Part shown: positions 1-52,036 of the stretch, one piece after another
Layout: the number at the start of each line of letters is the position of its first letter
Numbering within the stretch: the first letter of the stretch is position 1
Position numbers and translations under genes: made by a program
The notes under the pieces: generated by a model
Told to the model about the DNA's origin: nothing
What the model saw: the letters and a program-made list of their open reading frames with translations, nothing else
Databases searched by the model: none
From: Naegleria gruberi
Taxonomy: Eukaryota
Strand: one strand, 5' to 3'
Assembly (NCBI GenBank): GCA_000004985.1
Contig: GG738846.1
Length of the DNA stretch: 64,000 bases

Positions 1-1
1 A

Positions 2-1187: not shown

Positions 1188-1253
1188 AATTTGAGCATGT
1201 TGATCTCAGTATGCTATTGAGATATTATTTGTACTGAGTTGAATATTCCACAC

Positions 1254-7585: not shown

Positions 7586-7832
7586 GATTAGTTTTTTTCT
7601 GCTTGAAATATCAATAGAATATTGTGATGTTCAGACAACCAGATTATAATGTATGTGTGCTTTTACAAGTCATCTAAGGAATCAAATGTTCATTTCATAA
7701 TAGAACGCACTAATTCCTTTTAGACAAGTTACTCAATCCTGATAACATGTAACAAAATATTCTCCGTATTAAGAGTTCAAAAGGGCACCCAACAACATTT
7801 ATTTCAATAATTATCAGCTTTTGTACAAATTG

Positions 7833-9251: not shown

Positions 9252-9398
9252 TTTTTTTGTTTGTGTTTAAATTTAAACAACAGACTTTTTGGCGGTAAAC
9301 GTTGCACCTTTTCTCTGTAACGGCAATCAAACATCAAAGGTTGTCGCTTAATGAAATATCAAATTCCATTTAATTCTTTTTAAATGTTATGATAATCT

Positions 9399-20267: not shown

Positions 20268-20605
20268 TTTTTTTTTGTTTTGTTTTTACTTGTCAAACTT
20301 CATTTGAAAATAGTTGTCATCTTATTGAAAGAAGTGCACAACACCAAATATTACCCACATTTATTAGTGGATTTATCGGAACAAAACACAATTTTCCTTA
20401 ATATCATATGGTAACATCTTAATTTTTTCTTCAACATAGTGAAACCTCCTTAAAGAAGGAACTTGGAAATCAATTTTTTTAACATTTACAATCAAAGCCT
20501 TTTTTCTGTCTGCTCAACAAATATCCAAATTGGTAATCAAAAAGCTTAAAAAAATATAGCAAAGTCTTCATAATAAAGGCTTGTGCAAAAATTGTTGTTG
20601 TCGTG

Positions 20606-35274: not shown

Positions 35275-38200
35275 TTATTCCAAAACCAAACTAATTCCTC
35301 TTTCAGAACAAACTTTGTGTAAACTATCAATTTCTTTCCATCCAATGAGAACCAATTTCTTTAAGGAAGGTGTGTTGTTCTTATTCTTCAACCAATCTAT
35401 CAAAACATTAACGCCAATAGATTGAGGAGATCCACTCAATGTCAAACACTTGATCTTTTTGTTATTTCTCAAATTCTGAATAATTAATGAAAATTCTATC
35501 GAGTCAATAAATTGGTCACATCCTGTGAAATTCAAACTGGCTGGTGTCTTTTTGATTGCTTTCAAAAAGTCTTCCTTTTGATCATCTTCAATAATATATG
35601 AACCAGCTTGTTTGAAATATTGTATCAATTCAAATGTTTCATCAGTTGTAATAACTCCCAAATCATCAATAAGATCTTCGAAAATATCAGATGCAGAATA
35701 TAATAATTCATTATCTGCTGCTGACAATCTTGGAGTAACAAATGTTGAGTTTGGAGGAGAGTTCACTTTTGGTGTGGTTGGACTTCTTGGAGGACCTGTG
35801 CTGCTAATAAATGATCTTCTGTGTCTTCTAGGAGAGCTTGTATTTGCACTATTGAAAACTGTATCTGCTACCTTATTTGTAAAGTTATTTGGATCAAAGT
35901 GGAATCTTGAGCTTCTTGGAGTTGGAGATAATAATCTGGCTGACATTGGTGGCTCATCATTATTTCCTCTTCTCGAAAGAGCAGAGAAGAAGATTTCCTT
36001 AGTAATGGTAGGGACTGATTCATTGTGATTTTTCTTCACATCTTGAGTATTGATGGTGGAAGGAATTTCCACTTCCTTGTTCATTTGTTGTTGAGGAGTA
36101 TTTGGATTTGAATTGACAATTGCTGCACGAAGTTTTGAATCTGAAAGTTTAAAGTTATTGATTGGACTTGGATGTTGATACATTCTTTCAACACTGGTTG
36201 GAGTTGATGGACTGCTGTATCCTTCTGATTTGTCAATCATGGCAATCTTTTCCTTAAATCTATTCAGTTCATCCTTATTGTTTCCTGAGGCTGATAGTGG
36301 TGTGGCAACAGTAGTTGTGTTTTCACCAGTAGAGAATTTGAGTTTTCCATTCTTTTCCAACTCTTCAAAGAAGAGTTTTAACATGGCATAGAGTGATTTG
36401 GTGTTTCCCTTTTCAATTTCATCGTGAATATAGGAAAATCTTTGGGTATTCTTTGCAATTTTGTGAACAGCTTGAATAAAAGCTTGATGGTTATCATTCT
36501 TTTGGAATTTGTTTGGATTATTCTTATATTTGATAACCTTTCCATAGTATTTCTCCACAATCATGCAAAGTACAGTTCCGTCATCTATAATTTTGTGCAA
36601 TGAATGGCCTTCATCAGGTCTATCTGTAATTTGAAGAATAGTTTCCTTGAAATACTTTTCTTCATCCTCTTCTAACATCTTTTGAGAACTTGTAGCTTTT
36701 TGATAGTAGTGTGTTCTACTAGACATCATTCCTTCAATATTTGCTTGCCTATCTGTAATGGATCCGTCAGAATTTTCTGAAGGAGTACTTGGTGGAATAA
36801 TTGGAGCCTTAGAGAAGGACATGCTTCCAAAGCTTTTTGTTCTGGCACTCAACATTGGTCGAGATGGAGATTCCAATGGAAGGAAGATTGAGTGTGATTG
36901 AAGTTTTTTCAAGGATTGAGTTCTAATTTCAGGCTGGGCTGCACATTTAACAGAAAACTCAAAAAGTAGTGCCAAATTACTGACAATACAGTTTCTTTCC
37001 TTTACAGAGCTATGTTCTGGTTCAGTTGATGCCTTTAGTAGATAGTCATGTTCAAATACAGTTGAGATACCAACATTTTTACAGAAATTGGTGTAAAGAG
37101 AAACATTTCCAATAGCAGCTTGGTTATTTGTCATACCTTCAACATATTTCTTACATGGTTCAATCTCAGGGAACAAAGTATTAGCATATTTGCACAAAAT
37201 TACTCCGTCCAATAAATTCTTGAAAAGTGAAATAGATGTGTCATATTCATTTCCAGCTAATTTCAGAAGCCATTTTGAAAGAGCTTTCTCTGCGTATTCA
37301 AGTTCTTGACTGCGGAAATCTTCCTTACTTTCAGCATTGAGCTTCTTTCCTGTTCTTAATAAACTAAAAATCGATTTTCCTCTCATCTTTTCATAAGTTT
37401 CTTCGCTAAACTCAAAGCCAGCTTCTTCCATCAACTTCATAAACTTCCAAGTTGGATCATGTTCCTTTGGTGGCAATTCTTTCTTTGGGGTTTTTGGAGT
37501 TTGTGGAGGTTCTTCAGTCTTGACAGGTGGTGGTTTGACTTTTAATAGAGCTAACTTTTTAGTCAATTCTTCTACTCTTCTCAAATGGGAGTTCATCTTT
37601 CCTTCATAGATATTTCCAAGTGATGTACTCATTTCATTCAATTTCTCTATTACTAGATTTTCAGTGTTAGACTGGAATGTAGAAACAAAAGTATTGAAAA
37701 ATGAGTAATCGAGAGGGAAAAGTTCTTTCAACTCAATGTACTTTTTCTTTACATCACTTAATTGAGAATGAACATTTTGGATAGACTTGGTAAGATCTAG
37801 GATTTTTTGCTGGTATTCCTTGGTGATTTCTTCTTTCTCATTTTGAAGTGTTTGATTAGAAGTTTGGAGAGCTTCAATATCTTGCTTTAGTTTCAGCTCT
37901 CGTGTTTTCAAATTTTTGATCTCATTATCGAGCTGGTTGTTATCTGAATCTATGCGATTTTTAAGTTGTTCAACCTCTTCATTCTTGGCACTCAGTTCAT
38001 TTTCAAGTTTTTCGTTGGTGGACTTTTCTTTTTCTAAGGCAGAGCTAGTTTGATCAACCAGTTTTTCAGCTTCTGCAAATTTCTGCTTTAAGTCTTTGAT
38101 AGATAGATCAAGTTTGTGTGATTTTTCTTCTTGTCTATTTTTTTCTTCTTTCACTAGATCGAGTTGCTCCTTGTATGAGTTTTCTATATTCTTGGCTTGT

Positions 38201-41200
38201 TCGACTAATAGCTGATTTGTTTTGTTAAGAGCATCGATTTCAGTTTGCTTTGAGTCGTTTTCACGTTTCATTTGCTGAATATTGGACTCGAGATTTCTTT
38301 GAGTTTCCTGAGATTCTCTAGCTAATGATTCATAAGCGGTCTTTTGTTGCTGTTGTTTATCCTCTACGTCTTGGAGTTGAATGTTCAATTCTTCAAGTTG
38401 TGTTTTAGTCTGGGAAATGTGGTTGTCCATCTTTGCTTTTTCTTCTTCCATTATTGCTATCTTTTCTGCTTGTTGATTGGCTTTTTCTGATAGTGATTTG
38501 TTCTTTTCAGACAAGTCTTTAACCTCCCTTTCCTTAGATGAAATATCATCTTCAAGTTTGGACTTCTCCTTGTTGATTGTTTCCTTATCTTCTTCTAGTT
38601 CTTTAACACGCTTGTTTCTCTTTGTTAAGTCTTCTGATAATTGTTGGAGTTCTTCAGTTGCATTCTTAAAGTCTTTGGACAATTTGTTACTTTCTTGTTC
38701 TAATTTTTCAATTTCAGATTCTTTTGAATTCAATTTCTCCTTGAAACTGTCTTTGGCTTGATCCAAGAGCTCTGATAGCTCTTTTTCTTTAGAGGAAGCT
38801 TTTTGAAGGGAGGCTTGTAACTCTTCTTCTCTTTCTTTAAGATTCTTAATTTCCTTTTCTAGACTCTTGTTGACAGTTTCAAACTTTTCAATATCAGCTT
38901 GGAGCAATACTTGTGTTTGCTTTGTTTCTGAAACAGTATTATTGAGTCTAATCTTTTCTTCTTCAATAAGGTTCTTCAAGGATTCATTTTCTTTTTCAAG
39001 CTTTTCAATCTTTTCCTTCAAACCAGACTCTAAATTGTGACAGTTTGTTTCACAATCGTTTAGCTTTCCATTTTTAACAGAGAGTTCATGCTTCAATTGT
39101 TGAATTTCCTCTTCTAACTTGGTAACATTGAGAGTAGAATTTTGAAGGTTATTGGTTAAGGATCTTTCTTTTTCTTTCAATTTCTCTAATTGTTCTAGAA
39201 GATCAGCAATCTTTTCCTCTGCGCCTTTCTTTTCCTTCCTCAAATTTTGAATAGTATTCTCATGTTCTTCAATTTTATGTTCCATATTTTCTTGTAGCGC
39301 TTTCTTTTCTGATTTAAGGTTGGTTATATCATTCGAAAGTTGTGAAATTTCTTCAGAAAGTTCTTCCTTGTTCTTTTTGATTTGTTGAACTGATTTGTTA
39401 AGGGTTTCTATTTCTATTTCTGCTAATTTCTGATTAGATTTGAACTCTGCCAATTGGTTGTGCAAATTATCTAATTCCTTGCTCTTCTTTTCTAGTTTTT
39501 CTGTTTCATCAGCAAGTAATTTTTCCTTTGTCAGTAGAGTATTTTGTAATTTTTCGTTTTCATGTTTCAATTGGGTATTGTTTTCAGCAACTTCTTGCTC
39601 CTTTTCTTTGCTGAATCCCAAATTTTCTTCTAAATTTTTGTGGGTGCGTCTTTCATTTTCGAGATTGTTCTGGATTTCAACAAGCTTGAGCTCAGTTTCT
39701 TGTAATTTTTGATTTTCAGATATGATCTCATCTTGATGCTTCTTTTGCATATTTGCCATGCCAACTTCCATATCTTGTAGTTGGTTTTGAACTTTCTTCA
39801 TCTCTCTTTCCTTAGACGAAATATCATCTTCAAGTTTGGACTTTTCCTTGTTGATTGTTTCCTTATCTTCTTCTAGTTCTTTAACACGCTTGTTTCTCTT
39901 TGTTAAGTCTTCTGATAATTGTTGGAGTTCTTCAGTTGCATTCTTAAAATCTTTGGACAACTTGTTATTTTCTTTTTCTAATTTTTCAATTTCAGATTCT
40001 TTTGAATTCAGCTTCTCCTTGTACTCTGTAACAACATTTAAGTTACCAGCCTCTGCTTTTTGTAATTCTGTTGAAAGTTTGGAAATTTCCCTTTCTAATT
40101 CTGCTACCTTTTGGCTATTAATTGCATGTTTGCTTTCCTCTTCCTTCAATTTATGTTCATACTGTTTACTTAGTTGATCCAATCTCAAAGAATCATTCTT
40201 TGTCTCCATTAATGCCGATTCTTGTTCAAATTTGTCTTGTTTAAGCTGCTTGATATCTTGTTGAAGTTTGGAAATGGTTTTCTCTAGTTCTTCAATATTC
40301 AGTTTATGTTCTCCTAGCTCCAAATCTTTTTCTGATAATTTTTTAGCTGACAATTTGCCCTTTTCTGTCAAGTCTTGTAAATTCTGTTCTAACAGGGTCT
40401 TGGCAGATTCTAACTCGAAAATCTTTTTTCTTTGTTCAGTCGATATTTTATCACAGTCGGTCTCAAGTTCATTAATTTCTTTTAACTTGTTTTTCAACTT
40501 CTCTCTTGAAGATTCCAACTCATCTTCCAATTGATTCTTTCCTTGCTCAAGTGAATGAATTTGTTTCTTCAAATCGTGTTCGTTTTGAGATTGTTCTTTT
40601 TCTAAAGTTTTCATTTTTTGCATCAATTCATCAACCTCTTGTTGTTTTGCAAGCTTCAATTCATCTAGTTGTTTCTTGAGAAGAATACAATTTTCACAAT
40701 TTGCCTTTTCTGCCAATTTGAGTGTTATATCCTCTATTTCTTTTGTTAATTGTTTGACTTGGTCTTTTAGATTGTTATTTTCGTGTTGTGAATCAGTGTG
40801 TTCAAAATTCTTGAGTTGTGAAATGTAGTTTCCAATTTGAATTTGATAGTCATTTTCGAGTTCTTCAAGCTTTTTCTTTGTTTCTCTCTTTTGGTCATCA
40901 ATCTTGGACATTAATTTGTTCTCAGATTCTTTTAGGTCTGAATTTTCCTTGACAAGATGGTCTAATTTATCTTGTAGCTTCTTCTTTTCGTGATCAACCT
41001 CTTCCTTCAAGTCTGACAACTTGTGTTCAGATGTGATAATCCTAGCACTTAGTTGTTGAATCTCATTATTCTTCTTTCTAATTTCCTCTATGTGAGCTGT
41101 GTCCTTTGCACTGGTCAAGTCTGAGAATTTTGAAATTTCATCTTCCAGATTCTTAATTCTCTTTTCTCTTTCTTGTACAGTGTGTTCCAGTTTCTTTCTA

Positions 41201-44200
41201 GTATCTGCAGTGTCCTGTTGTAACTTGGCTAACTCTTCTTGAGTTTGCTCAACTTGCTTTTTGTAAATGATTAACAAACTCAACTTCTGTTCCATAACAA
41301 GTTTGTTCTCCTTTTCTGATTCCAAGTCAAGCTTTGCTTGGAACAACTCTTTTTCTATCTGCCTGTTCTTTTGTTGTAAATCCTGGAACAAGTTAACATT
41401 AGACTTAGCATCCTCTGTTAGATGGCTATTGGATGATTTGAGAATTTGAATGTTATGATCCAACAAGTTCTTTTCCATCTCCATTTTAGAAGCTTTGGAT
41501 TCCAACTCCAACATGCTAGAATTCATATTCTCTATGGTCTTCTTCAAAGAATTGATAATTGTGTCCTTAGACTGCACACTGTGTTCTGCTTGTTCAAGAG
41601 ATGCCTTTTGTTGATTCATCAATACATTTAAATTCTGTACCTTGATAGATAAGGTACTATCTGATGTTTTGAGATTGTTGAGCTCATCCTGTAACAGCTT
41701 GATTGTTGTTGATTTTTCAGAATTTGATAACTCTATCGTAGAAAGGTAGTGATTAGTCTCTTGTAATTTTAGCTTTAGCTTTTCCACTTCTTCTTTGTGT
41801 TGTTGAGATTGTTCATGGATGGAAGATTTAAGTTTACGCTTTTTCTCCTTAGAGATGGCTATTTGATTGTCCTTACTTTCTAGTTGGGACTTGAATTGTT
41901 GAAGTGTTGAATTGAGGCGTTCAGTTTCATTCAATAGCTTGTTTTCCTTTTTTCTTAATAAGTCTATTATCTCCGTAACCATATATCCTGTTTCTGATTC
42001 TTGAAGTACTGTGTCATCTGGAACCAGAGATTTTAGCTTTTTACAAACATCCTCAATTAGTTTGGATTGGTTATCGATATGTTTTGACTTTTCCTTAAGA
42101 ACCTCATTGAGTTTCTTGAAATCTTCTTCTTTTGTCAAACAAGTTTGATTCAACAAAATAATAGATTTTTCTTTTTCATCCAATTTCAACTCCATATTTT
42201 GCAATTGGCTCTTGAGAGAATTCAGATTTTCAGTTAGTTTCCTACTAGATTCCTTTTCTACTTCCAACTCTTTTTTGAGTTGAATGCCTTCTCTTTCTGC
42301 AGAGTGTGTTTTTTCCTTTTGTTTTTCAAGCTCATCTTGTATGGTTTGTTTGGACAAATCAGCTTGTTCTTTAAGCTTTTTGAGATCACTAATCTTGATA
42401 TCTTGACTCTGAATTGACTCTTTTGCGGAGCTCAACTCTCTTTCGAGGTTGCTTTGCAAAGTGAAAAGTTTAGATATCTCATCATCTTTGGATTTTAGTT
42501 TGAGACTAAAGGTTTCCTCTAGTTGTTGTTTTTCGTTTTGGTAAGCATTTTTGTCTTGTTTGAGTTGTTGCTTTAGTTCATCTATTAATGCATCAGAAAT
42601 GGAAATCTTACTTTGAAGAGATTCAATGGATTGCTTGTCGGAGAGAATAGAGCGATTCAATTTTAATAGCTCATCGTTGTGCTTACTTTCAAGAGACCTC
42701 TTTTGTTCATCCAAATTTTCAACTTGGTCCTTCAAGGTCTTAATCTTATCTTTCTTTGTTTTGATAGTATTTTTCAATTCATCCACTTTACATTTCAGTG
42801 CTTCAATTTGTTCTTGCAAAGATGTAGATTTTTCCTCACAATTAGTAAGTTTTTCACTCAAAGACTGGTTAATTGAGAATTTGGATGCATTCAAATCACT
42901 GATATCCTTATTTTGCTTTTCTTTTTCAGCTAACTCTTTGATGAATTTTTGAGAGAGTGATTCATTTTGTTTCTCACTTTGCTCCAATTTTTGATTTAAA
43001 TGGTTGATCAAGTTATCCTTCTTGAATAAATCATCTAACAAACAATTATTGCTCTCTTTGAGTTTGTCCAGTTTGGATTGTAAATCTAAAATTTTTTCAT
43101 CTAGGTTATTCTTAGCCGTTTTAAGAGATTCGTTTTCTTTTTTTTCATTTCCAAGTGCAATGTTGGATGAGGTTAATAGTCTCTCCACTTCAATTTTGGC
43201 AAGATCAGATTGTGAGAGTTTGATTGATAGATCCTTTGTTTGTTTTTTCAAATCCTCTACTTGCTCCAGTAGTTGTTCTATTTCTTTCTTATCAACAGTA
43301 TTGCATTTTAGAGCCTTGGCAAGCTCTATTTCCAGCTCATTAATTTTTTTAGAAAACTCCCGTATTTCTGCTTCATACTTCTGCACTTGTTGTCTGGAGT
43401 TGGTTAAAACAGCCTCTATTTTCTCTTTTTCTTCCTGAATTTGCTCCTTTTCAGATTCAGATTCTCGCAACTCTTTTTCTAATCTTTCCAAATCAGAGTT
43501 CAAAGAAATATTTATCTTTTTCTTCAAACTGGTGTTAGCTTCTTCGAGTTCGTTATTTTTGTTGGTGAGATCTGAAATTTTCCTTTCATTCTCTTCAATA
43601 GTGTTTTTCAAATTTTGATTAACACGATCCAGTTTGCTTTTTTCTGACTTGCTAGTTTCTAGTTCTTCTATGATGTTTGACAGTTTAGACTCGACATTTC
43701 TTTTCATATCTGTTGATGCAGAGACTTCAATCGTAGAATTTTGAAGATCAATCTTCAGATTAGTATTTTCTTGTAAAACTTGCGTATATTTGTGTTGCCA
43801 GTCTCTTGCATTTATACTGGCCTCTTCGAGATCTCCAGATATTCTCTTATTTTCCTTACTTTTTTCATACAATTCTGAATTTAACTTTTCAATATCTGAA
43901 AAATGTTGAATTAATAGAGTGTGCTTTTCTTTCAGCTCCTTTGTAAGCTCGTTGATTTTAGTTTCTTTCGAAAATAATTCCTCTGAATGATCTTTGTCTA
44001 ACTTGTGAAAATCTTGTTGTTTTTTCTCCAACAATTCCTTTAGTTTTGTAATCTCTTGATCTCTTTCATGTAAATAAATTAATTGTCTTTCCAACTCCAT
44101 AGCTTTTTCCTTCAGCTTCCAAGAAACCTCTTCAAATTTCAAATGATTTTCCCTAGATGCTTGTAAAATTAGTACCATTTGTTGTGTGAAATAATCATAG

Positions 44201-44661
44201 AGACCTTTCACCAACTCAGAATAGTCTTTTTTCAATTTTTCAAACTTGTTTCTCAACTTGACAATATTCCTTGCCAATTCTTCAATAATTTCCCAAAGAG
44301 ATGTCTGATACCCGAAACGAACATTTTCCATCAATTCATTCAATTGTTGAACACAAACTTCCTGCTCCCCTAGAGATTGCAACAATATTTCTTTAATTCT
44401 CTTATCCCTCTCCACAGTAGCAATCAGTTTATTCTCAAACTCCTCATGAATATCACTAATCTTATCATCAATTATTTTCTTCTGAATGAAAAGATCGGCC
44501 ACTGATACCGAACCATCATCAGATGGAGCAACAATACTCGATGTATCATCTATTATTATACTCCTACGTTTAAAATTTGATGCAGATGATGAGGGTGATA
44601 ACGAAGCTCCTCTCATTAGAAATTCATCATCACTCTCCTGAATTCGGAAAGCATCCATCAT
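35275..44661 (-). CDS. Giant protein of about 3129 aa. It has a roughly 2400-aa N-terminal coiled coil, two calponin-homology-like domains and a C-terminal LRR-like region.
   Basis: Single uninterrupted ORF. The first ATG is at 44661 (the ORF track starts at a TTG at 44703). The heptad-rich E/K/L sequence runs throughout. A CH-like stretch reads …WLLKLAGNEYDTSISLFKNLLDGVILCKYANTLFPE…NVSLYTNFCKNVGI…, and a second one reads …LHKIIDDGTVLCMIVEKYYG…AFIQAVHKIAKN… The C-terminus …IKCLTLSGSPQSIGVNVLIDWLKNKNNTPSLKKLVLIGW… is LRR-like. Confidence 0.65.
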   Translation of the reverse strand: MMDAFRIQESDDEFLMRGASLSPSSSASNFKRRSIIIDDTSSIVAPSDDGSVSVADLFIQKKIIDDKISDIHEEFENKLIATVERDKRIKEILLQSLGEQEVCVQQLNELMENVRFGYQTSLWEIIEELARNIVKLRNKFEKLKKDYSELVKGLYDYFTQQMVLILQASRENHLKFEEVSWKLKEKAMELERQLIYLHERDQEITKLKELLEKKQQDFHKLDKDHSEELFSKETKINELTKELKEKHTLLIQHFSDIEKLNSELYEKSKENKRISGDLEEASINARDWQHKYTQVLQENTNLKIDLQNSTIEVSASTDMKRNVESKLSNIIEELETSKSEKSKLDRVNQNLKNTIEENERKISDLTNKNNELEEANTSLKKKINISLNSDLERLEKELRESESEKEQIQEEKEKIEAVLTNSRQQVQKYEAEIREFSKKINELEIELAKALKCNTVDKKEIEQLLEQVEDLKKQTKDLSIKLSQSDLAKIEVERLLTSSNIALGNEKKENESLKTAKNNLDEKILDLQSKLDKLKESNNCLLDDLFKKDNLINHLNQKLEQSEKQNESLSQKFIKELAEKEKQNKDISDLNASKFSINQSLSEKLTNCEEKSTSLQEQIEALKCKVDELKNTIKTKKDKIKTLKDQVENLDEQKRSLESKHNDELLKLNRSILSDKQSIESLQSKISISDALIDELKQQLKQDKNAYQNEKQQLEETFSLKLKSKDDEISKLFTLQSNLERELSSAKESIQSQDIKISDLKKLKEQADLSKQTIQDELEKQKEKTHSAEREGIQLKKELEVEKESSRKLTENLNSLKSQLQNMELKLDEKEKSIILLNQTCLTKEEDFKKLNEVLKEKSKHIDNQSKLIEDVCKKLKSLVPDDTVLQESETGYMVTEIIDLLRKKENKLLNETERLNSTLQQFKSQLESKDNQIAISKEKKRKLKSSIHEQSQQHKEEVEKLKLKLQETNHYLSTIELSNSEKSTTIKLLQDELNNLKTSDSTLSIKVQNLNVLMNQQKASLEQAEHSVQSKDTIINSLKKTIENMNSSMLELESKASKMEMEKNLLDHNIQILKSSNSHLTEDAKSNVNLFQDLQQKNRQIEKELFQAKLDLESEKENKLVMEQKLSLLIIYKKQVEQTQEELAKLQQDTADTRKKLEHTVQEREKRIKNLEDEISKFSDLTSAKDTAHIEEIRKKNNEIQQLSARIITSEHKLSDLKEEVDHEKKKLQDKLDHLVKENSDLKESENKLMSKIDDQKRETKKKLEELENDYQIQIGNYISQLKNFEHTDSQHENNNLKDQVKQLTKEIEDITLKLAEKANCENCILLKKQLDELKLAKQQEVDELMQKMKTLEKEQSQNEHDLKKQIHSLEQGKNQLEDELESSREKLKNKLKEINELETDCDKISTEQRKKIFELESAKTLLEQNLQDLTEKGKLSAKKLSEKDLELGEHKLNIEELEKTISKLQQDIKQLKQDKFEQESALMETKNDSLRLDQLSKQYEHKLKEEESKHAINSQKVAELEREISKLSTELQKAEAGNLNVVTEYKEKLNSKESEIEKLEKENNKLSKDFKNATEELQQLSEDLTKRNKRVKELEEDKETINKEKSKLEDDISSKEREMKKVQNQLQDMEVGMANMQKKHQDEIISENQKLQETELKLVEIQNNLENERRTHKNLEENLGFSKEKEQEVAENNTQLKHENEKLQNTLLTKEKLLADETEKLEKKSKELDNLHNQLAEFKSNQKLAEIEIETLNKSVQQIKKNKEELSEEISQLSNDITNLKSEKKALQENMEHKIEEHENTIQNLRKEKKGAEEKIADLLEQLEKLKEKERSLTNNLQNSTLNVTKLEEEIQQLKHELSVKNGKLNDCETNCHNLESGLKEKIEKLEKENESLKNLIEEEKIRLNNTVSETKQTQVLLQADIEKFETVNKSLEKEIKNLKEREEELQASLQKASSKEKELSELLDQAKDSFKEKLNSKESEIEKLEQESNKLSKDFKNATEELQQLSEDLTKRNKRVKELEEDKETINKEKSKLEDDISSKEREVKDLSEKNKSLSEKANQQAEKIAIMEEEKAKMDNHISQTKTQLEELNIQLQDVEDKQQQQKTAYESLARESQETQRNLESNIQQMKRENDSKQTEIDALNKTNQLLVEQAKNIENSYKEQLDLVKEEKNRQEEKSHKLDLSIKDLKQKFAEAEKLVDQTSSALEKEKSTNEKLENELSAKNEEVEQLKNRIDSDNNQLDNEIKNLKTRELKLKQDIEALQTSNQTLQNEKEEITKEYQQKILDLTKSIQNVHSQLSDVKKKYIELKELFPLDYSFFNTFVSTFQSNTENLVIEKLNEMSTSLGNIYEGKMNSHLRRVEELTKKLALLKVKPPPVKTEEPPQTPKTPKKELPPKEHDPTWKFMKLMEEAGFEFSEETYEKMRGKSIFSLLRTGKKLNAESKEDFRSQELEYAEKALSKWLLKLAGNEYDTSISLFKNLLDGVILCKYANTLFPEIEPCKKYVEGMTNNQAAIGNVSLYTNFCKNVGISTVFEHDYLLKASTEPEHSSVKERNCIVSNLALLFEFSVKCAAQPEIRTQSLKKLQSHSIFLPLESPSRPMLSARTKSFGSMSFSKAPIIPPSTPSENSDGSITDRQANIEGMMSSRTHYYQKATSSQKMLEEDEEKYFKETILQITDRPDEGHSLHKIIDDGTVLCMIVEKYYGKVIKYKNNPNKFQKNDNHQAFIQAVHKIAKNTQRFSYIHDEIEKGNTKSLYAMLKLFFEELEKNGKLKFSTGENTTTVATPLSASGNNKDELNRFKEKIAMIDKSEGYSSPSTPTSVERMYQHPSPINNFKLSDSKLRAAIVNSNPNTPQQQMNKEVEIPSTINTQDVKKNHNESVPTITKEIFFSALSRRGNNDEPPMSARLLSPTPRSSRFHFDPNNFTNKVADTVFNSANTSSPRRHRRSFISSTGPPRSPTTPKVNSPPNSTFVTPRLSAADNELLYSASDIFEDLIDDLGVITTDETFELIQYFKQAGSYIIEDDQKEDFLKAIKKTPASLNFTGCDQFIDSIEFSLIIQNLRNNKKIKCLTLSGSPQSIGVNVLIDWLKNKNNTPSLKKLVLIGWKEIDSLHKVCSERGISLVLE
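38528..38756. repeat. Copy 1 of a near-identical 230-bp intragenic direct repeat (the partner lies at about 39798-40026)
   Basis: The DNA at 38528-38756 and at 39798-40026 is nearly identical on reading. It encodes …LNSKESEIEKLE(K/Q)E(N/S)NKLSKDFKNATEELQQLSEDLTKRNKRVKELEEDKETINKEKSKLEDDISSKERE… twice. The ORF track's antisense ORFs at 38477 and 39836 carry identical peptides, which confirms the duplication. Confidence 0.85.
39798..40026. repeat. Copy 2 of the near-identical 230-bp intragenic direct repeat
   Basis: See copy 1. The two copies lie about 1.27 kb apart inside the same coiled-coil CDS. Confidence 0.85.
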
Positions 44662-44683
44662 CTGAAGTGAAGATTCCGAATAT

Positions 44684-45118
44684 CTATTCGAACGAGCGTT
44701 CAACCTCTGTAAAGTAGGACTCGTCTTGTTGATTACTTTGCTGTACTACAGCAAGAGAAAACCTTCTATTAATTTCATTGGTATCATTATTATTATTTTG
44801 AGTTGGATTGTTTTTTTCTTCTTTTAAATTTTTGGCGCCAATATTTCCATCACCACTTTCACTGTTATTATTTAGATTCATACTACTCCTATTGGACTTT
44901 GATTTACTATTATTACTTGTACTATCATCTTTGGAATGTGAAGAAGGTGTTTGTTCCGTCTTCTGATTGTTGTTTTTTAGGATTTTAGAAATGATGAAGG
45001 AAACAATGACAAGTGCACTGGCAAGTGCCATTAGAAACCAAGTGTTAGTTTGGCCAACTACTACAGACTCATCATCAAACTCTGAGATATGAAATGTTTG
45101 TTGAGCATTCTGTGACAT
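44684..45118 (-). CDS. Small hypothetical membrane protein of 144 aa, with an N-terminal signal-anchor TM helix and an N/S/K-rich tail
   Basis: The ATG is at 45118. The TM helix is WFLMALASALVIVSFIISKIL. The stop lies only 22 nt upstream of the giant gene's ATG (see findings). Confidence 0.4.
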   Translation of the reverse strand: MSQNAQQTFHISEFDDESVVVGQTNTWFLMALASALVIVSFIISKILKNNNQKTEQTPSSHSKDDSTSNNSKSKSNRSSMNLNNNSESGDGNIGAKNLKEEKNNPTQNNNNDTNEINRRFSLAVVQQSNQQDESYFTEVERSFE

Positions 45119-46876: not shown

Positions 46877-48002
46877 ATGGAAGTTGATGTTTTTGGTGAT
46901 AATAAAGACGGTCAGGCTAGGAATGCGATCGTAACGAAGGAGGTTACCTATTTTAATCGTCTTTACTATTCAATGTACGTGAAGGATAATACAACAATGG
47001 ATCCAGCTATTCATAAAGAACATCTGGAAATGTTGGTAGGAAATTCTGGCATCCCTGGTTTAACCTTGGCTTCACCACCACCACAGGTACGTTGATCACT
47101 CCATTAATATTGGTTGTTGATCGCATTAATCTATTTGATCTTGTGATTTTATTTGATTTAATCAATTATTATTTAATTGATTCAAATAATTATTAATATA
47201 GAAAAAAAGAAGTATTTCAGAGGTGAACAATACACCATCATCATCTAAACAATCTGTAAATAATACATCATCAAAAAAGAAAAAAACTACCGACAAGATA
47301 TCAAAAATCAAAGTGTACACTTCAAGTTTATTTGACAAAGGACTTTTAGCCTCTGGAGATACTGTAATGTTCAAGCATGATGATAAGGAAATTAAATGTA
47401 AAGTGAATAATCATGGGGAATTGGAGGTCAATAATGCTGATAAAACTGATACGAGAATTTCAAATAATTTGAGAATTATCACACAATTTATTTGTAAAGC
47501 TTATAACTTACCCTTAATGGGAAAATCAAAATATTGGAATTTATTTTATCTAGTTAATAAGAATGGATCTAGGAATAAGCTCAAAACTTTGAGAGAGCAG
47601 TATTTGGCATTACATGAACAGGGAAATTCAAAAGTTGTAGCTGAAAAGAGTGACAAGTCAGAAGAGAAAGAAACTGCCAAGAGAAGAAGAAGAAAACAAG
47701 CTGAAGAAGCCAGCAAGAAGAATGCTCGTTTATTAATTTCTCAATTGGTTAGTAGCGGACTTTTAAAGGATGGTGCTAAAGTAATTTATAGAGGTCAGAA
47801 AACTACTTTTCATGGCAAAATTACAAAGTCCAAATTTATCTCATATTACGACCAACTAACTAAAAGAGAAGAACAATTTGAAACACCCAACTCATTTAAA
47901 TCTCATATTGGTGAACTTGGTAACTGTTGGCAACAAATGGTTCTCGTTGATGATGACCAGGAAATCTCATTCCAAACTTTAAGAGATAAATATTTTGAAT
48001 GA
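46877..48002 (+). CDS. Hypothetical K/R-rich (nuclear-like) protein with an internally duplicated module of about 70 aa. Two exons: 46877..47086 and 47202..48002.
   Basis: The GTACGT donor at 47087 and the AG at 47200-47201 join in frame. The two modules are …SSLFDKGLLASGDTVMFKHDDKEIKCKVNNHGELEV…ISNNLRIITQFICKAYNL… and …LVSSGLLKDGAKVIYRGQKTTFHGKITKSKFISY…NSFKSHIGELGNCWQQMVLV… A KRRRRKQAEEASKK NLS-like block sits between them. Confidence 0.45.
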
Positions 48003-48655
48003 GGAATCAATCTTTAAAGAATCAACAAATACAAGAGATACTATTTGGCCTCGATTTTGTAATCTATTTTGATCTGCAAGTATTAATAAATTGCTAAACA
48101 ATTGACAAAAAAACAAAATTCCAGCTGTTGAAAGTCAAGTTTCTAGTGAAATTATTACAAAAAAAGCCTTAAATATCCAGATTTTTGTTTGTTACAATTA
48201 TTATGTTGAGCTAATTATTTTCTTGATTATGTTAGAAGATCTTTCAATTTAAACGATCCAATTCACTCTCTAATGTCAATGGAATTGAAATTACAGAATT
48301 TGTTATTCTTTTGATATTTTCCTCTCATTTGAGAAATTGTTTTCCATTGGTTGAGTAAATTATATGCAGATCATTTTTGGTTTATTGATAAATTTCCTTT
48401 GCCCCATTCGTTTTACAATTCTTAATATGCTAGAAGATGATGAGAATAATTAAGACGTCTTTCTCGAAAACATCAATAATCTCCCGAAGCCTTGTTATTA
48501 TTATTTTAAAAGACAAAAATAAAAAACACAAAATAGCCTAACACAACGCATCATCACAACAGCCGACAGTTTTAAAATAATTTAACGGCTATTCATCAAC
48601 ATTTTTGTATCATAAAACAACAACCTCAACATATATAATCATCAACGATGGAATC

Positions 48656-50523
48656 ATGTCTCAAGACTCATCAGGACTAAAACAATCAAACGGAAATACT
48701 AAAGATCCACTTGTTGTAAAATTGGAGGCTAACAAGCTCCGACTAGGATGCACAAGAGACGACTATAGAACATTGCAAATTATTGGGAAGGGTTCTTTTG
48801 GACATGTCTTTTTAGCATACTCAATTCATGGAAATCAACCTCATGTCGCTATAAAGAAAATAGACAAGGAATTACTACTGAATGACTATAATGTTGATCG
48901 TTTAAATAGTGAAATAACTATTCACCTGAATATGAATCACGAAAATATTGTGGAATTATATCTTTATTTTGAACAAAATAATTCTTATTATCTAGTGATG
49001 GAGTATTGTAAAGGAGGTGATATGTATAAATTCTTGAAAAAACAAAAAACCTTTAATGAAGCCCAATCAAAACATTACTTGACACAAATTGTGAATGCAC
49101 TGATATATTTACAATCGTTCGGAGTGGTTCACAGGGATCTCAAAGTATGTACACTATATCATTAGAATCAATTTAATGTTTTTAAAGCTTTCTAACATTT
49201 TACTAACTGAAGACCAGCAACAAATCAAATTATCAGACTTTGGACTCTCCACAAAGCTTGATAGTGTTGATGGAGAGCAAAGCACTATTCTAGGAACGCC
49301 AAATTATATGGCCTAGTAAGTTTTTAATCAATTTTTAACCAACACCATTCAGTGAAATTGTAAATAAGATGAATTATGGAATGAAGGTAGATAATTGGGC
49401 TCTAGGTTGTATATTATTTACATTTTTGGTTGGTGAATCTCCATTTGATGAAGGAAGTAGAACTCAAACGTTTGATAAGATTAGAAAATTGGATTACAAG
49501 ATTCCTGATTTTGTCTCTAAAAATGCAAGAGATTTGATTGAAAAACTTCTGCATCCAGATCCTACCAAACGTATTTCCCTTATCGAATGTAAATCTCACC
49601 CTTTTCTAAGAGAATCTATTCCAAAGCCTATTCAAACTAATGGATTCAATTCTAACTCAAGGGCAAAAACACAGGAAGAGATTTCATCCACAATTACCAA
49701 GACTCCATTCAATACCATTAGAATTAAACCATTCACTCACAAGAAGAACGATATTCATATAGAGATTAATGAAACAGGGAATGTATTCTTGACATTTAAT
49801 AATGGAGACAGAAGATTTATTGTTTCAGGAGATGGAAAAACGATATGGTATGAAAAGAAAGCATCAAGGCGGAAAGAGTTCTCCTTCTTTGAAATGCCAT
49901 CATCAGTAGAAAAATACTATGAATATGCCAGAAATTTAATTGACACTATTAAGAGTAAGACTCCAAAAATAATATACCTAGATACTGATTTCAAATGTAT
50001 TCAAATGGAAAATCATCCATTTCCTGATTATGAAACATCACTCTTTCCATCGGGTATCAGAATGGTGTATCAAAGAAGAAAAAGCATGGTCATTGTGAGA
50101 TTTTCTAAGGAAAGATCTGTTTCAATTCACCTCAACAAGGACCTCACATTATTCAAAGAAGAAATGGATCTCATAGATAATCACAAAATTGTAAAAGTAG
50201 AAGGATCACTAACTGTTGAAGAGAGCGAAATTCTTTTCAATAACTCTGTTCTGTGGTCCAGTTTAGGCCATGTAAAGAAAGGTATTGATCTCATAGAACA
50301 AGCAGAGAGAGAAATGGCGATCGATTCTTATCCATTCTTTATCAATGCAACCAGTAACACATCTGGTCCTCTAAGTCCAACCCTAAGTGATACCAGTACA
50401 ACAAGTAGTAACAATTCCTCTACACTGAATCGTTGTTTACTTTCATCTCTTTCCTTCTCCACCAACAACAGTGAATCCAACCCACCAGATGATAGTAGCT
50501 TTTCTAATCCACATTTCTATTAA
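48656..50523 (+). CDS. Polo-like kinase of the PLK4/SAK type, with two polo-box-like repeats at the C-terminus. Three exons: 48656..49144, 49188..49315, 49353..50523.
   Basis: The kinase domain reads IGKGSFGHVF…AIKKIDK…HRDLK|LSNILLTEDQQQIKLSDFGLST…GTPNYMA|YEIV…DNWALGCILFTFLVGESPF. The 'LSN' after HRDLK and the overall similarity point to PLK4 (…[28 protein letters not shown]). The C-terminal …IRIKPFTHKKNDIHIEINETGNVFLTFNNGDRRFIVSGDGKTIWYEK… and a second similar block resemble a cryptic polo box. Introns are 43 and 37 nt. Confidence 0.7.
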
Positions 50524-51124: not shown

Positions 51125-52036
51125 TTAGGCTTCTTCATCACCAATTCGATTGTTAGAAATATCAAGTGATGTTAATTGTTTCATTTCACTTATTGATTTG
51201 GCTTCTTCATCACCAATTCTATTTCCACCAATATTAAGTGATTTTAATTGTTTCATGTCAATTATTGATTTGGCTCCTTCATCACCAATTCGATTGTTAT
51301 AAACATTAAGTGATGTTAATTGATTCATTCCACTTATAGACTTGGCTCCTTCATCACCAATTCGATTTCCACTAATATCAAGTGATGTTAATTGATTCAT
51401 TCCACTTATGAATTTGGCTCCTTCCTCACCAATTTGATTGAAATAAATATCAAGTGATGTTAATTGTTTCACTTCAATTATTGATTTGGCTCCTTCATCA
51501 CCAATTTGATTTCCACTAATATCAAGCGATGTTAATTGATTCATTTCACTTATTGACTTGGCTCCTTCATCACCAATTTGATTGTAATAAACACTAAGTG
51601 ATGTTAATTGTTTCATTTCACTTATGAATTTGGCTCCTTCATCACCAATTCCATTTTCATCAATAGTAAGTGATTTTAATTGTTTCATTTCACTTATGAA
51701 TTTGGCTTGTTCTATAGAGTCAAGCAACCTTCTCGAAAATTTAACATTTTCAATACTATTCATAAATTGACTTGTCATGAATAATTTAATTCGTTTCTCT
51801 GTAAATTTTTTTTTGAATTCAATAACAAGTTTTGAACGTTCCTTGATCACATTAAAGAATTGTTTTGAAATCAAGGAACAATTATTCAAAATAAACCACG
51901 AATCATCAATCATGGAAATTATTTCAAAACAAACATCATCTGAAAATATTTCTTGGAGCACAAGTTTTTTCTTTTTTCTTTTCTTATTTTTGATCCGAAA
52001 TTGCTTTTTAAAATCTTGAATGCTTCGTTTGCTCAT
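51125..52036 (-). CDS. Leucine-rich-repeat protein of the RNI/NLRC3 type, with an F-box-like N-terminus and about 8 tandem 24-aa repeats
   Basis: The 24-aa (72-bp) unit ISEMKQLTSLDISGNQIGDEGAKS is reiterated tandemly from about 51130 to 51720. The N-terminus LVLQEIFSDDVCFEIISMIDDSWFIL is F-box-like. The ATG is at 52036. Confidence 0.65.
   Translation of the reverse strand: MSKRSIQDFKKQFRIKNKKRKKKKLVLQEIFSDDVCFEIISMIDDSWFILNNCSLISKQFFNVIKERSKLVIEFKKKFTEKRIKLFMTSQFMNSIENVKFSRRLLDSIEQAKFISEMKQLKSLTIDENGIGDEGAKFISEMKQLTSLSVYYNQIGDEGAKSISEMNQLTSLDISGNQIGDEGAKSIIEVKQLTSLDIYFNQIGEEGAKFISGMNQLTSLDISGNRIGDEGAKSISGMNQLTSLNVYNNRIGDEGAKSIIDMKQLKSLNIGGNRIGDEEAKSISEMKQLTSLDISNNRIGDEEA
51130..51720. repeat. 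Tandem 72-bp coding repeats (the LRR array)
   Basis: The DNA pattern 'caagtgatgttaattg(t/a)ttcat…ggctccttcatcaccaat' shows a 72-nt periodicity. Confidence 0.85.

What the first reader, a model, noticed from the sequence alone, without database searches (positions are those of the whole stretch)
35275..44661. Giant 3129-aa CH-domain coiled-coil protein with a C-terminal LRR-like region and recent intragenic duplications
This is a single 9.4-kb exon. It encodes about 2400 aa of uninterrupted coiled coil, then two calponin-homology-like domains and an LRR-like tail. The architecture suggests a cytoskeletal linker, perhaps a rootlet or basal-body fibre protein. Two 230-bp segments about 1.27 kb apart (38528-38756 and 39798-40026) are nearly identical at the DNA level. 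That implies recent unequal crossing-over, with risk of assembly collapse or expansion in this gene.
Basis: seen in the sequence. Interest (0 to 1): 0.5.

Follow-up and report, generated by a model that had tools for sequence, protein, structure and literature searches.

The report
Membrane-anchored giant coiled-coil CH–LRR protein
This is a real but uncharacterised Naegleria gruberi gene for a roughly 3,270-residue protein that probably sits in a membrane by an overlooked N-terminal anchor and carries two calponin-type domains and a small leucine-rich-repeat domain at the end of a rod about 0.3 µm long; it is an unusual build from ordinary parts, not a new kind of system.

Summary
A 9.4-kb open frame lies on the minus strand (35275-44661; 3,128 aa). 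About 2,200 aa of it is heptad-periodic rod. Two CH domains each score just above Pfam's threshold. The 143-aa tail is a true ribonuclease-inhibitor-type LRR domain. A 220-nt segment occurs twice at 96% identity, 1,278 nt apart.

Three corrections:
- The window is Naegleria gruberi.
- The gene is probably not a single exon. A 144-aa ORF ends 23 nt before the big ATG. It encodes a conserved FHISEFDDE motif and a transmembrane helix, and these form the N-terminus of the 2,725-aa N. lovaniensis orthologue. The protein is therefore most likely a single-pass membrane protein with its bulk in the cytoplasm.
- The duplicate is an isolated patch with unrelated flanks. It is absent from the orthologue and differs at 9 sites, 7 of them synonymous. 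That does not look like a fresh tandem duplication or an assembly artefact.

The two CH domains are calponin-type and about 90 aa apart, so they are not a canonical tandem actin-binding domain. Nothing supports a rootlet or basal-body role. The best reading is a long membrane-to-cytoskeleton tether, probably to actin. The function is inferred, not shown. The family is small and almost confined to Naegleria. Interest is moderate.

The parts
44750..45118 (-). Probable exon 1. This is the 5' part of the 144-aa ORF 44684-45118. It encodes MSQNAQQT-FHISEFDDESVVVG, a transmembrane helix and a low-complexity N/S-rich stretch.
   Evidence: ORF list and sequence. It aligns to residues 14-78 of the N. 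lovaniensis orthologue P0001 (E 8e-8). A 232-nt intergenic space lies upstream, but only 23 nt lies between its stop codon and the big ORF's ATG.
45068..45094 (-). Conserved N-terminal motif FHISEFDDE, predicted to face the lumen or the outside of the cell.
   Evidence: The motif is identical in the window and in P0001. The N-flank has net charge -4.
44978..45034 (-). Predicted transmembrane helix LMALASALVIVSFIISKIL.
   Evidence: Kyte-Doolittle 19-residue mean is 2.39 (2.66 in the orthologue). The N-flank is acidic and the C-flank basic, so the N-terminus is predicted outside and the C-terminus cytoplasmic.
44684..44749 (-). Junction zone. The exon-1 frame and the big ORF's frame are both open across 44684-44745. 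The best candidate intron is 44707-44749 (43 nt, GTAGTA...TTTACAG, phase 0). The alternative is a 1-nt frameshift in the assembly.
   Evidence: Frames were read. All in-frame GT..AG joins were enumerated. Introns of 43 and 37 nt occur in the neighbouring PLK4 gene. The exact junction is not determined.
35275..44706 (-). Main exon and ORF, stop codon at 35275-35277. Read from the ATG at 44661 it encodes 3,128 aa. With exon 1 the protein is about 3,266 aa.
   Evidence: No canonical short intron lies inside it.
37726..44364 (-). Coiled-coil rod, aa ~100-2312 (about 2,213 aa). If fully extended it would be about 330 nm long.
   Evidence: Heptad-register score against shuffles, one Pro, near-zero Gly. 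Only weak coiled-coil Pfam hits. Weak 21-nt periodicities in the DNA.
39802..40021 (-). Intragenic duplicate, copy A (aa ~1548-1621).
38524..38743 (-). Intragenic duplicate, copy B (aa ~1974-2047). It is 95.9% identical to copy A.
   Evidence: The unit has no specific counterpart in the orthologue (best match about 30% identity, generic coiled coil).
37342..37458 (-). Family-specific helical motif before CH1: DPTWKFMKLMEEAGF...RGKSIFSLLRTG.
   Evidence: It has invariant columns in alignments A1 and A3. It matches nothing in Pfam or the PDB.
36937..37299 (-). CH domain 1 (aa ~2455-2575), calponin/transgelin/IQGAP type.
   Evidence: Pfam PF00307 at 26.4 bits, E 8e-6. The family profile's best PDB hits are calponin-1 (E 8.5e-5), transgelin-2, ARHGEF6, Rng2/IQGAP and GAS2.
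36337..36672 (-). CH domain 2 (aa ~2664-2775). It is present in the long form only.
   Evidence: Pfam PF00307 at 27.5 bits, E 3.9e-6. Weak PDB hits to calponin-2 and Rng2. It aligns with the orthologue and is absent from the short paralogues.
35707..36336 (-). Disordered linker of about 210 aa, rich in S/T/P/N, with 12 [ST]P motifs.
   Evidence: Composition. No secondary structure and low pLDDT in the model.
35278..35706 (-). C-terminal RNI-type leucine-rich-repeat domain (143 aa, five beta-strands about 30 residues apart).

Best explanation
Identity and build. The locus is one Naegleria gruberi gene (about 35275-45118, minus strand). It encodes a single-pass membrane protein of about 3,270 residues. 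From N- to C-terminus the protein has:
- a short acidic N-terminal peptide with a conserved FHISEFDDE motif, facing the lumen or the outside of the cell;
- one transmembrane helix with a basic cytoplasmic flank;
- a low-complexity spacer;
- a coiled-coil rod of about 2,200 residues, presumably dimeric and up to about 0.33 µm long;
- a family-specific helical motif (RGKSIFSLLRTG);
- two calponin-type CH domains separated by a disordered linker of about 90 residues;
- a [ST]P-rich disordered linker of about 210 residues;
- a compact RNI-type LRR domain.

Proposed function. The protein most likely works as a long, membrane-anchored tether or spacer. The anchor fixes one end in a membrane, though which membrane is unknown. 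The rod sets the distance. The distal CH and LRR modules engage the cytoskeleton, with actin the more likely partner, or proteins associated with it. The [ST]P-rich linker is a likely site of phosphoregulation.

The 220-nt duplicate. It is a lineage-specific copy or conversion tract inside the fast-evolving rod, with no special function.

What is shown and what is inferred. Shown: the ORFs, the domain identities, the orthologue's fused N-terminus and the repeat. Inferred: the splice or frameshift junction, the membrane topology, dimerisation, the binding partner and the cellular role.
For: Organism. Three window ORFs are exact matches to N. gruberi proteins XP_002682585.1, XP_002682586.1 and XP_002682587.1, on a 1.0-Mb scaffold.

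One gene with a transmembrane anchor.
- The upstream ORF ends 23 nt before the ATG and the two open frames overlap.
- It aligns with residues 14-78 of the 2,725-aa N. lovaniensis orthologue XP_044541758.1, which carries the same motif and helix fused to the same rod-CH-CH-LRR body.
- Hydropathy is 2.39 (2.66 in the orthologue), with acidic N-flanks and basic C-flanks.
- A 43-nt in-phase GT..AG candidate matches the intron sizes of the neighbouring PLK4 gene.
- A distant 2,473-aa relative (L002) also has a same-strand upstream ORF piece with a transmembrane helix and a basic flank.

Rod.

CH domains.
- Both are above Pfam's threshold.
- The best solved relatives are calponin, transgelin, ARHGEF6, Rng2/IQGAP, GAS2, fimbrin and Vav, which are actin-associated or regulatory CH classes.
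- No EB1, NDC80, CLAMP or HOOK hit appears.

LRR. The matches include the tropomodulin and leiomodin actin-binding LRR and the CARMIL LRR, alongside generic RNI and NLR LRRs.

Conservation pattern. The C-terminal modules are 40-60% identical to the orthologue and the rod only 21-36%, with many small indels. That is what a spacer with functional ends would show.
Against: - No experimental or expression data exist for this gene or its relatives. Literature searches on the accessions found nothing.
- The exon-1/exon-2 junction is unresolved. The candidate donor GTAGTA departs from the GTAAGT/GTATGT seen in neighbouring introns, and 37 different GT..AG joins are formally possible.
- Single calponin-type CH domains are not reliable actin binders. 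This is established knowledge: calponin's own CH domain is dispensable for actin binding.
- The LRR fold match is generic. NLRP, RanGAP and axonemal LRR proteins score as well as tropomodulin.
- The short paralogues, such as N. gruberi XP_002675678.1 (905 aa), show no transmembrane helix, so membrane anchoring is not a property of the whole family.
Confidence: 0.5

Rival explanations
1. The protein is a soluble cytoskeletal fibre protein, such as a rootlet (rhizoplast) or basal-body fibre component. It would be translated from the ATG at 44661, and the upstream 144-aa ORF would be a separate small membrane-protein gene.
For: - The rod is very long, as in rootletin-like fibre proteins.
- Naegleria builds basal bodies and a rhizoplast de novo (general knowledge).
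- The two ORFs are in different frames and the junction is not proven.
Against: - The orthologue carries the same N-terminal motif and transmembrane helix fused to the rod.
- A 23-nt gap leaves no room for a promoter or 5' UTR.
- No rootletin, SF-assemblin or other fibre-family hit was found.
- CH and LRR ends are not found in known rootlet proteins (own knowledge).
- The neighbouring PLK4 and tubulin genes are not evidence of function.
Confidence: 0.12
2. The anchor and rod are as in the best explanation, but the distal end binds microtubules or axoneme-associated structures. The protein would then act in the flagellate stage or in mitosis rather than on actin.
For: - CH domains of some families bind microtubules (EB1, NDC80, CLAMP; own knowledge).
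- There is a weak CAMSAP_CH similarity (E 0.01), and the distant relative P0012 gives 48 bits.
Against: - The CH profile's significant PDB hits are all calponin, transgelin, IQGAP or GAS2 type. No EB1, NDC80 or HOOK hit appears.
- In CAMSAPs the CH domain is not the microtubule-binding module (own knowledge).
- The LRR similarity is at fold level only.
Confidence: 0.15
3. The distal modules do not bind filaments directly. Instead they form a protein-protein scaffold, with the LRR as a docking surface and the calponin-type CH domains as regulatory modules, as in Vav, PIX and IQGAP. The rod would hold a signalling or trafficking complex away from a membrane, much as golgins or kinectin do.
For: - The CH type matches ARHGEF6, Vav and IQGAP as well as it matches calponin.
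- RNI-type LRRs are generic protein-binding modules.
- There are 12 [ST]P motifs in the linker.
- An N-terminal anchor plus a long coiled coil is the build of kinectin and p180 (own knowledge).
Against: Nothing argues specifically against this. It differs from the best explanation only in the partner. No kinesin-binding, GRIP or GRAB-type motif was detected.
Confidence: 0.18
4. The 220-nt duplicate is an assembly artefact (a false expansion), or it marks a region where further copies have been collapsed.
For: Intragenic repeats in giant coiled-coil genes are a classic source of misassembly. No read data are available here.
Against: - The copies differ at 9 of 220 positions, 7 of them synonymous. 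That argues for two real copies under purifying selection.
- Both junctions are in frame, and the flanks are unique sequence.
- The unit occurs only twice in the window.
- The unit is shorter than a Sanger read, and the N. gruberi reference was Sanger-sequenced (own knowledge).
Confidence: 0.05

Closest known systems
Naegleria lovaniensis XP_044541758.1 (C9374_013769, 'CH domain-containing protein', 2,725 aa)
   Same: It is the orthologue. It has the same order of parts: FHISEFDDE motif, transmembrane helix, rod, RGKSIFSLLRTG motif, CH1, CH2, S/P-rich linker and RNI-type LRR. Identity is 41% over the C-terminal 816 aa (E 4e-119) and 21-36% in the rod.
   Different: Its rod is about 500 aa shorter, through many small indels. 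It has no counterpart of the 74-aa duplicated unit. It is uncharacterised too.
Short paralogues: N. gruberi XP_002675678.1 (905 aa), N. lovaniensis XP_044546542.1 (800 aa), and metagenomic P0002 (1,027 aa)
   Same: They share the coiled coil, the RGKSIF motif, CH1, an S/P-rich linker and the RNI-type LRR tail.
   Different: They have one CH domain instead of two, a rod of only about 150-550 aa, and no transmembrane helix visible at the N-terminus.
Kinectin / p180 (RRBP1) class of N-terminally anchored ER coiled-coil proteins
   Same: A single N-terminal membrane anchor is followed by a very long cytoplasmic coiled coil. That makes them a functional analogy as membrane-attached rods (own knowledge).
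   Different: No sequence similarity was detected. They lack CH and LRR domains.
Nesprins (KASH proteins) and Dictyostelium interaptin
   Same: They are giant rod proteins that join a membrane anchor to CH domains at the far end of the rod (own knowledge).
   Different: Their polarity is reversed: a tandem CH1-CH2 actin-binding domain at the N-terminus and a transmembrane/KASH domain at the C-terminus. Nesprin rods are spectrin repeats. Here the CH domains are calponin-type and are not in tandem. No KASH or spectrin hit was found.
Cytospin/SPECC1L, smoothelin and LRCH proteins
   Same: SPECC1L has coiled coils followed by a C-terminal calponin-type CH domain. LRCH proteins combine LRR and CH domains in one actin-associated protein (own knowledge).
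   Different: LRCH has the order LRR then CH, uses a different LRR class and has no rod. SPECC1L has no transmembrane helix, no LRR and a single CH domain. No specific similarity beyond the CH fold was found.
Tropomodulin / leiomodin C-terminal LRR (actin-binding site 2) and the CARMIL LRR
   Different: NLRP, RNase-inhibitor, RanGAP and axonemal LRRs score equally well. Sequence identity is 12-16%. No tropomodulin Pfam hit was found. This is a fold-class resemblance only.

Membership tests
Calponin-homology (CH) domain, Pfam PF00307 | A match to the CH profile above Pfam's gathering score (26 bits). | tested here: met
   CH1 scores 26.4 bits and CH2 27.5 bits when scanned separately. The joint E-value is 1.2e-11. 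All five relatives scanned also match.
Tandem CH1-CH2 actin-binding domain (alpha-actinin/spectrin/filamin type) | Two CH domains directly adjacent (a type 1 followed by a type 2), forming one module of about 250 aa. | tested here: not met
   The domains are about 90 aa apart, joined by a disordered S/P-rich linker. The best PDB relatives are the single-CH classes: calponin, transgelin, IQGAP/Rng2, ARHGEF6, GAS2 and Vav. The short paralogues have only one CH domain.
Leucine-rich repeat, ribonuclease-inhibitor (RNI) type | Repeats of about 28-30 residues with an LxxLxLxxN/C-like strand followed by a helix, forming a beta-alpha solenoid. | tested here: met
Coiled-coil rod | Sustained heptad periodicity of hydrophobic residues, with helix breakers absent. 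| tested here: met
   A home-made heptad score exceeds the 95th percentile of shuffles in 21-88% of windows per 100-residue block (half or more in most blocks) across aa 100-2312, and in 0-14% of windows outside that span. There is one Pro in 2,213 aa. No dedicated predictor (COILS, MARCOIL) was available.
Single-pass membrane protein with an N-terminal signal-anchor (N-terminus outside, C-terminus cytoplasmic) | One hydrophobic helix of about 19-21 residues near the N-terminus, positive charges on the cytoplasmic flank, encoded in the same mRNA as the rest of the protein. | tested here: inconclusive
   The helix and the charge asymmetry are present and are conserved in the orthologue. Physical linkage of exon 1 to the main ORF rests on the orthologue's gene model and on the 23-nt spacing. 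No transcript data are available.
Rootletin / ciliary rootlet fibre proteins | Similarity to the rootletin or SF-assemblin families, and an all-coiled-coil protein without membrane anchor or CH and LRR ends. | tested here: not met
   No such Pfam hit at E <= 1. Only weak generic coiled-coil hits were found (TPR_MLP1_2, CENP-F_leu_zip, DUF3450), all below their cut-offs. A transmembrane helix, CH domains and an LRR are present.
LRCH (leucine-rich repeats and CH domain containing) proteins | N-terminal LRRs followed by a C-terminal CH domain, with no long rod. | tested here: not met
   The domain order is reversed (CH, CH, then LRR), and a 2,200-aa rod and a transmembrane helix are present.
Nesprin / KASH-domain proteins | A C-terminal transmembrane helix plus a KASH peptide, and a spectrin-repeat rod. 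| tested here: not met
   The C-terminus is an LRR domain. No KASH or spectrin Pfam hit was found. The only transmembrane helix is N-terminal.
Tropomodulin / leiomodin | Tropomodulin family signature (Pfam Tropomodulin), tropomyosin- and actin-binding N-terminal sites, and an LRR actin-binding site 2. | tested here: not met
   The only resemblance is at the fold level of the LRR. No tropomodulin Pfam hit was found. A WH2-like look of 'SIFSLLRTGKKLN' seen by eye got no Pfam support.
SMC / 'chromosome segregation ATPase' (the name one source gives relative P0012) | N- and C-terminal ABC ATPase head halves and a hinge domain. | tested here: not met
   No SMC_N, hinge or ATPase hit in the window protein or in P0012. 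The name is a coiled-coil annotation artefact.

The most novel reading that the evidence does not exclude
The long form defines a heterolobosean-specific class of membrane-anchored molecular rulers. In this reading an N-terminal anchor with a conserved lumenal or extracellular FHISEFDDE peptide would hold calponin-type CH domains and a tropomodulin-like LRR about 0.3 µm from a specific membrane, such as the nuclear envelope, the contractile vacuole or the plasma membrane. The protein would then be an independently evolved, reverse-polarity analogue of nesprin/LINC-type or membrane-skeleton linkers, organising cortical or perinuclear actin in an amoeba that has no interphase microtubules.
Probability: 0.12. 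Interest if true: 0.6.

Novelty: new variant of a known kind. Interest (0 to 1): 0.35.

Why it matters
- Naegleria amoebae crawl, feed and divide on an actin-only interphase cytoskeleton (own knowledge). How that cytoskeleton is attached to membranes is poorly known. A conserved, membrane-anchored 0.3-µm rod ending in CH and LRR modules is a concrete candidate for such an attachment, and the same family should exist in the pathogen N. fowleri.
- There is also a practical annotation point. An exhaustive search of 1.84 billion cluster representatives found no N. gruberi protein covering the C-terminal 816 aa. The obvious ORF products are absent as exact sequences. The reference model for this gene therefore appears to be missing or wrong, and the transmembrane exon would be missed by anyone reading only the big ORF.
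- Beyond that, the parts are ordinary and no function has been shown.

Tried and rejected
- **The search for homologous proteins.** Three searches returned nothing: the C-terminal 874 aa, alignment A1, and the 203-aa CH1 region. Yet P0001 shares long exact words with the query, so the word index seems blind here. These negatives carry no weight.
- **The look-up of encoding contigs.** Five look-ups were negative. N. gruberi is evidently not indexed, because even the tubulin that is in the protein collection was not found. These negatives are uninformative too.
- **Single-sequence AlphaFold of aa 2398-3128.** It gave pLDDT 40 and was unusable except for the tail.
- **afdb50 fold library.** It was not available.
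- **Old 1,278-nt tandem duplication hidden around the 220-nt repeat.** Rejected. In-register flank identity is 0.37 and 0.31, against 0.32-0.33 +/- 0.03 at other in-frame offsets.
- **One large N. gruberi-specific insertion carrying copy B.** Rejected. Global alignment with the orthologue shows many small gaps, the largest 84 aa.
- **WH2-like motif in 'RGKSIFSLLRTGKKLN'.** Seen by eye but with no Pfam support. The paralogues lack the LKK-like part. It is kept only as an untested lead.
- **Hidden introns in the big ORF.** No GTAWGT...YAG candidate was found on either strand.
- **Literature searches.** Searches for the accessions, the neighbouring locus tags and the JAESGV contigs found nothing. 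The CH-domain proteins named in N. fowleri proteomics papers are different, smaller proteins.
- **Exact spliced protein look-up.** I did not try this, because one search already implies that no model covering the C-terminus is in the collection.
Full report
**What is there**

The window has about 32% GC, is gene-dense and has very short introns. Three of its ORFs are exact matches to Naegleria gruberi proteins that lie on one 1,001,995-bp scaffold:
- alpha-tubulin XP_002682585.1;
- NAEGRDRAFT_61717, XP_002682586.1;
- NAEGRDRAFT_61718, XP_002682587.1.

The window is therefore N. gruberi nuclear DNA.

The reported feature is an open frame on the minus strand, 35275..44703, with its first ATG at 44661. 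It encodes 3,128 aa plus a stop codon. The strong negative AT skew of the plus strand over 38-44 kb simply reflects the A/G-rich codons (E, K, Q, N) of this minus-strand gene.

**The rod**

From about aa 100 to 2312 the protein is E/K/L/Q/N-rich. That span contains one proline (aa 881) and almost no glycine.

A heptad-register score passes the 95th percentile of composition-matched shuffles in 21-88% of windows per 100-residue block across this span (half or more in most blocks). The figure is 0-14% before and after it. Pfam gives only weak, sub-threshold coiled-coil hits. TRF picks up faint 21-nt (7-codon) periodicities.

So the rod is about 2,213 aa, not about 2,400. Fully extended, it would be about 330 nm long. 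No dedicated coiled-coil predictor was available.

**The C-terminal modules**

- **CH domains.** Pfam CH (PF00307) matches twice (E 1.2e-11 jointly). Scanned separately, CH1 (aa ~2455-2575) scores 26.4 bits and CH2 (aa ~2664-2775) scores 27.5 bits, against a gathering score of 26. A six-sequence family profile of the CH1 region hits calponin-1 (E 8.5e-5) in the PDB. It also hits calponin alpha, transgelin-2, ARHGEF6, Rng2/IQGAP, GAS2, fimbrin/plastin and Vav. It hits no EB1, NDC80 or HOOK-type CH domain.
- **Not a tandem actin-binding domain.** The two CH domains are about 90 aa apart, joined by an S/P-rich segment. They are calponin-type single CH domains, not an alpha-actinin-type tandem actin-binding domain.
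- **Family motif.** A family-specific helical motif (DPT.K...EGF...RGKSIFSLLRTG) precedes CH1. It is nearly invariant in all relatives and matches nothing known.
- **Disordered linker.** After CH2 come about 210 aa of S/T/P/N-rich sequence with 12 [ST]P motifs.
- **LRR tail.** The last 143 aa match no Pfam LRR model. A profile of six family tails does hit ribonuclease inhibitor (E 3.2e-7), designed RNI-type LRRs and NLRP LRRs. An AlphaFold model built with that alignment is confident (pLDDT 87.6, pTM 0.82). It shows five beta-strands 22-33 residues apart, alternating with helices.

It is a fold-class assignment and says nothing more specific.

**The repeat**

The copies lie at 39802-40021 and 38524-38743. 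They are 95.9% identical over 220 nt (blastn E 4e-100), and their starts are 1,278 nt (426 codons) apart.

Identity falls to background within a few bases on both sides. In-register flank identity is 0.37 and 0.31, against 0.32-0.33 +/- 0.03 for other in-frame offsets. Of the 9 differences in the core, 7 are synonymous.

The unit occurs only twice in the window. It has no specific counterpart in the orthologue, where the best match is about 30% identity and looks like generic coiled coil.

This is a discrete, lineage-specific dispersed copy or a gene-conversion tract inside the rod. It is old enough to have drifted and it is under purifying selection. It is not what unequal crossing-over between tandem units would leave behind. 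The nine differences also argue against a false assembly expansion. Copy number cannot be verified without reads.

**The gene is longer than the ORF**

A 144-aa ORF lies immediately upstream on the same strand (44684-45118). Its stop codon is 23 nt before the big ATG, and the big ORF's frame is already open from 44745, so the two open frames overlap.

This ORF encodes MSQNAQQT-FHISEFDDESVVVG, followed by a strongly hydrophobic helix (LMALASALVIVSFIISKIL, Kyte-Doolittle mean 2.39). Its N-flank is acidic (net -4) and its C-flank basic.

An exhaustive HMMER search of 1.84 billion representatives with the C-terminal 816 aa found only nine proteins at E <= 1e-3. The best is XP_044541758.1 of N. lovaniensis (2,725 aa, E 4e-119, 41% identity). 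That protein begins MSNNGNNNWERSI-FHISEFDDEVVVVG followed by a transmembrane helix and KKHK. The window's upstream ORF aligns to exactly that N-terminus (residues 9-73 against 14-78, E 8e-8).

Exon 1 has 232 nt of intergenic DNA upstream of it, which is room for a promoter. The 23-nt gap has none.

The neighbouring PLK4 gene has introns of 43 and 37 nt. The first of these restores the HRDLKLSNILL catalytic loop. A 43-nt GT..AG candidate (44707-44749, phase 0) would join the two frames and give a 3,266-aa protein.

The junction is still unresolved. The candidate donor (GTAGTA) is atypical, 36 other joins are formally possible, and a 1-nt assembly frameshift would do the same job.

A distant 2,473-aa relative on metagenomic contig JAESGV010001053.1 also has a same-strand upstream ORF piece with a transmembrane helix and a basic flank. 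This hints that the anchor is an old feature of the long form.

**The family**

The family is small:
- the N. lovaniensis orthologue;
- short one-CH paralogues in N. gruberi (XP_002675678.1, 905 aa) and N. lovaniensis (XP_044546542.1, 800 aa);
- a 1,027-aa metagenomic sequence;
- the three-CH relative of 1,548 or 2,473 aa.

All share the same order of parts: rod, RGKSIF motif, CH, S/P-rich linker, RNI-LRR.

Against its orthologue, the rod is 21-36% identical, with many small indels and about 500 aa of length difference. The C-terminal modules are 40-60% identical. This is the pattern expected for a spacer with functional ends.

No N. gruberi protein covering the C-terminal 816 aa appeared. The ORF products are absent as exact sequences. 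The reference annotation therefore probably lacks this gene or mis-models it. That is an inference, not a demonstration.

**How it most likely works**

Shown: the anatomy above.

Inferred:
- the protein has a single transmembrane helix, with the N-terminus outside and the C-terminus cytoplasmic (positive-inside rule);
- a dimeric rod projects the CH-CH-LRR end up to about 0.3 µm from a membrane;
- that end engages the cytoskeleton or proteins associated with it;
- the [ST]P-rich linker provides regulation.

Actin is the more likely partner, because every significant CH relative belongs to an actin-associated or actin-regulatory class and because tropomodulin, leiomodin and CARMIL LRRs are among the best fold matches. 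But single calponin-type CH domains are unreliable actin binders, and the LRR match is generic. A microtubule or axonemal partner, or a pure scaffold role, therefore remains open.

Nothing supports a rootlet or basal-body fibre. No such family signal was found. The architecture argues against it, and the nearby PLK4 and tubulin genes are coincidental neighbours.

**Comparison with known systems**

In function it resembles N-terminally anchored coiled-coil proteins (kinectin, p180) and, with reversed polarity, nesprin and interaptin-type membrane-to-actin linkers. In its domain parts it recalls SPECC1L (coiled coil plus a C-terminal CH domain) and LRCH (LRR plus CH). It meets the defining features of none of these families (see the membership table).

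It is best filed as a new variant of a known kind: a giant membrane-anchored cytoskeletal linker or spacer, built from standard modules in an undescribed order. It is restricted, as far as the searches reach, to Naegleria and a few environmental sequences. No paper mentions it or its relatives.

**Verdict**

The main added value is threefold: the overlooked transmembrane exon, the identification of the organism and the family, and proper support for the CH and LRR calls. Interest is moderate (0.35). The protein is an uncharacterised but plausible membrane-cytoskeleton tether in an organism where such links are poorly known. There is no surprising mechanism, and the function is not shown.

Noticed in passing
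window 20603-21952 (+): A 448-aa alpha-tubulin that exactly matches N. gruberi XP_002682585.1. By eye it looks divergent for an alpha-tubulin; Pfam Tubulin gives E 1.2e-49. It may be one of Naegleria's divergent, possibly mitotic, tubulins.
   Followed up: partly
window 48605-50523 (+): A PLK4-like kinase (Pkinase plus Plk4 PB1 and PB2). It is split by two tiny introns, 49145-49187 (43 nt, restoring HRDLKLSNILL) and 49316-49352 (37 nt). These show how short the introns in this genome can be. My reading of the second splice gives an unusual 'MAYEIV' where kinases have 'APE'.
   Followed up: partly
window 51125-52036 (-): A 303-aa protein made of RNI-type LRR_6 repeats (E 4.7e-44, motif 'IGDEGAKxISEMKQLTSL'). 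I recall, without checking, a large Naegleria family of such repeats. This exact ORF product is not in the protein collection, so the reference model probably differs.
   Followed up: no
window 35275-45118 (-), compared with the public protein collection: The 3,128-aa ORF product, a 3,127-aa variant and the 144-aa upstream ORF are all absent as exact sequences. No N. gruberi protein covering the C-terminal 816 aa surfaced in the exhaustive representative search. The reference annotation seems to lack this gene or to mis-model it.
   Followed up: partly
L002 (JAESGV010001053.1), about 3800-4150 (+), upstream of ORF 4343-11764: The 2,473-aa, three-CH relative is named 'chromosome segregation ATPase' by one source. 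It has a same-strand upstream ORF piece, 'MMFQAFTEYETLVFFASVTVVANILFMIALERRYRRNKP...'. That piece contains a transmembrane helix (Kyte-Doolittle 2.52) and a basic flank, and is probably an unannotated anchor exon there too. The organism of this contig (GC about 39%) is unknown.
   Followed up: partly
window 1-2000: GC content is very low here (15.8%, against about 31% elsewhere). There are AT-rich microsatellite-like repeats (for example 357-421) and overlapping ORFs on both strands that are probably spurious.
   Followed up: no
window 47223-48002 (+): This ORF has a sub-threshold match to the RAMA domain (PF18755; E 3.5e-8, 33.8 bits against a cut-off of 35.2). The domain is known mainly from prokaryotic restriction-modification contexts, so it is unexpected in a eukaryotic gene.
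   Followed up: no
window 37342-37380 (-), aa ~2428-2440 of the giant protein: The nearly invariant 'RGKSIFSLLRTGKKLN' looks WH2-like by eye in the two long orthologues. Pfam gives no support, and the short paralogues lack the LKK-like part.
   Followed up: partly
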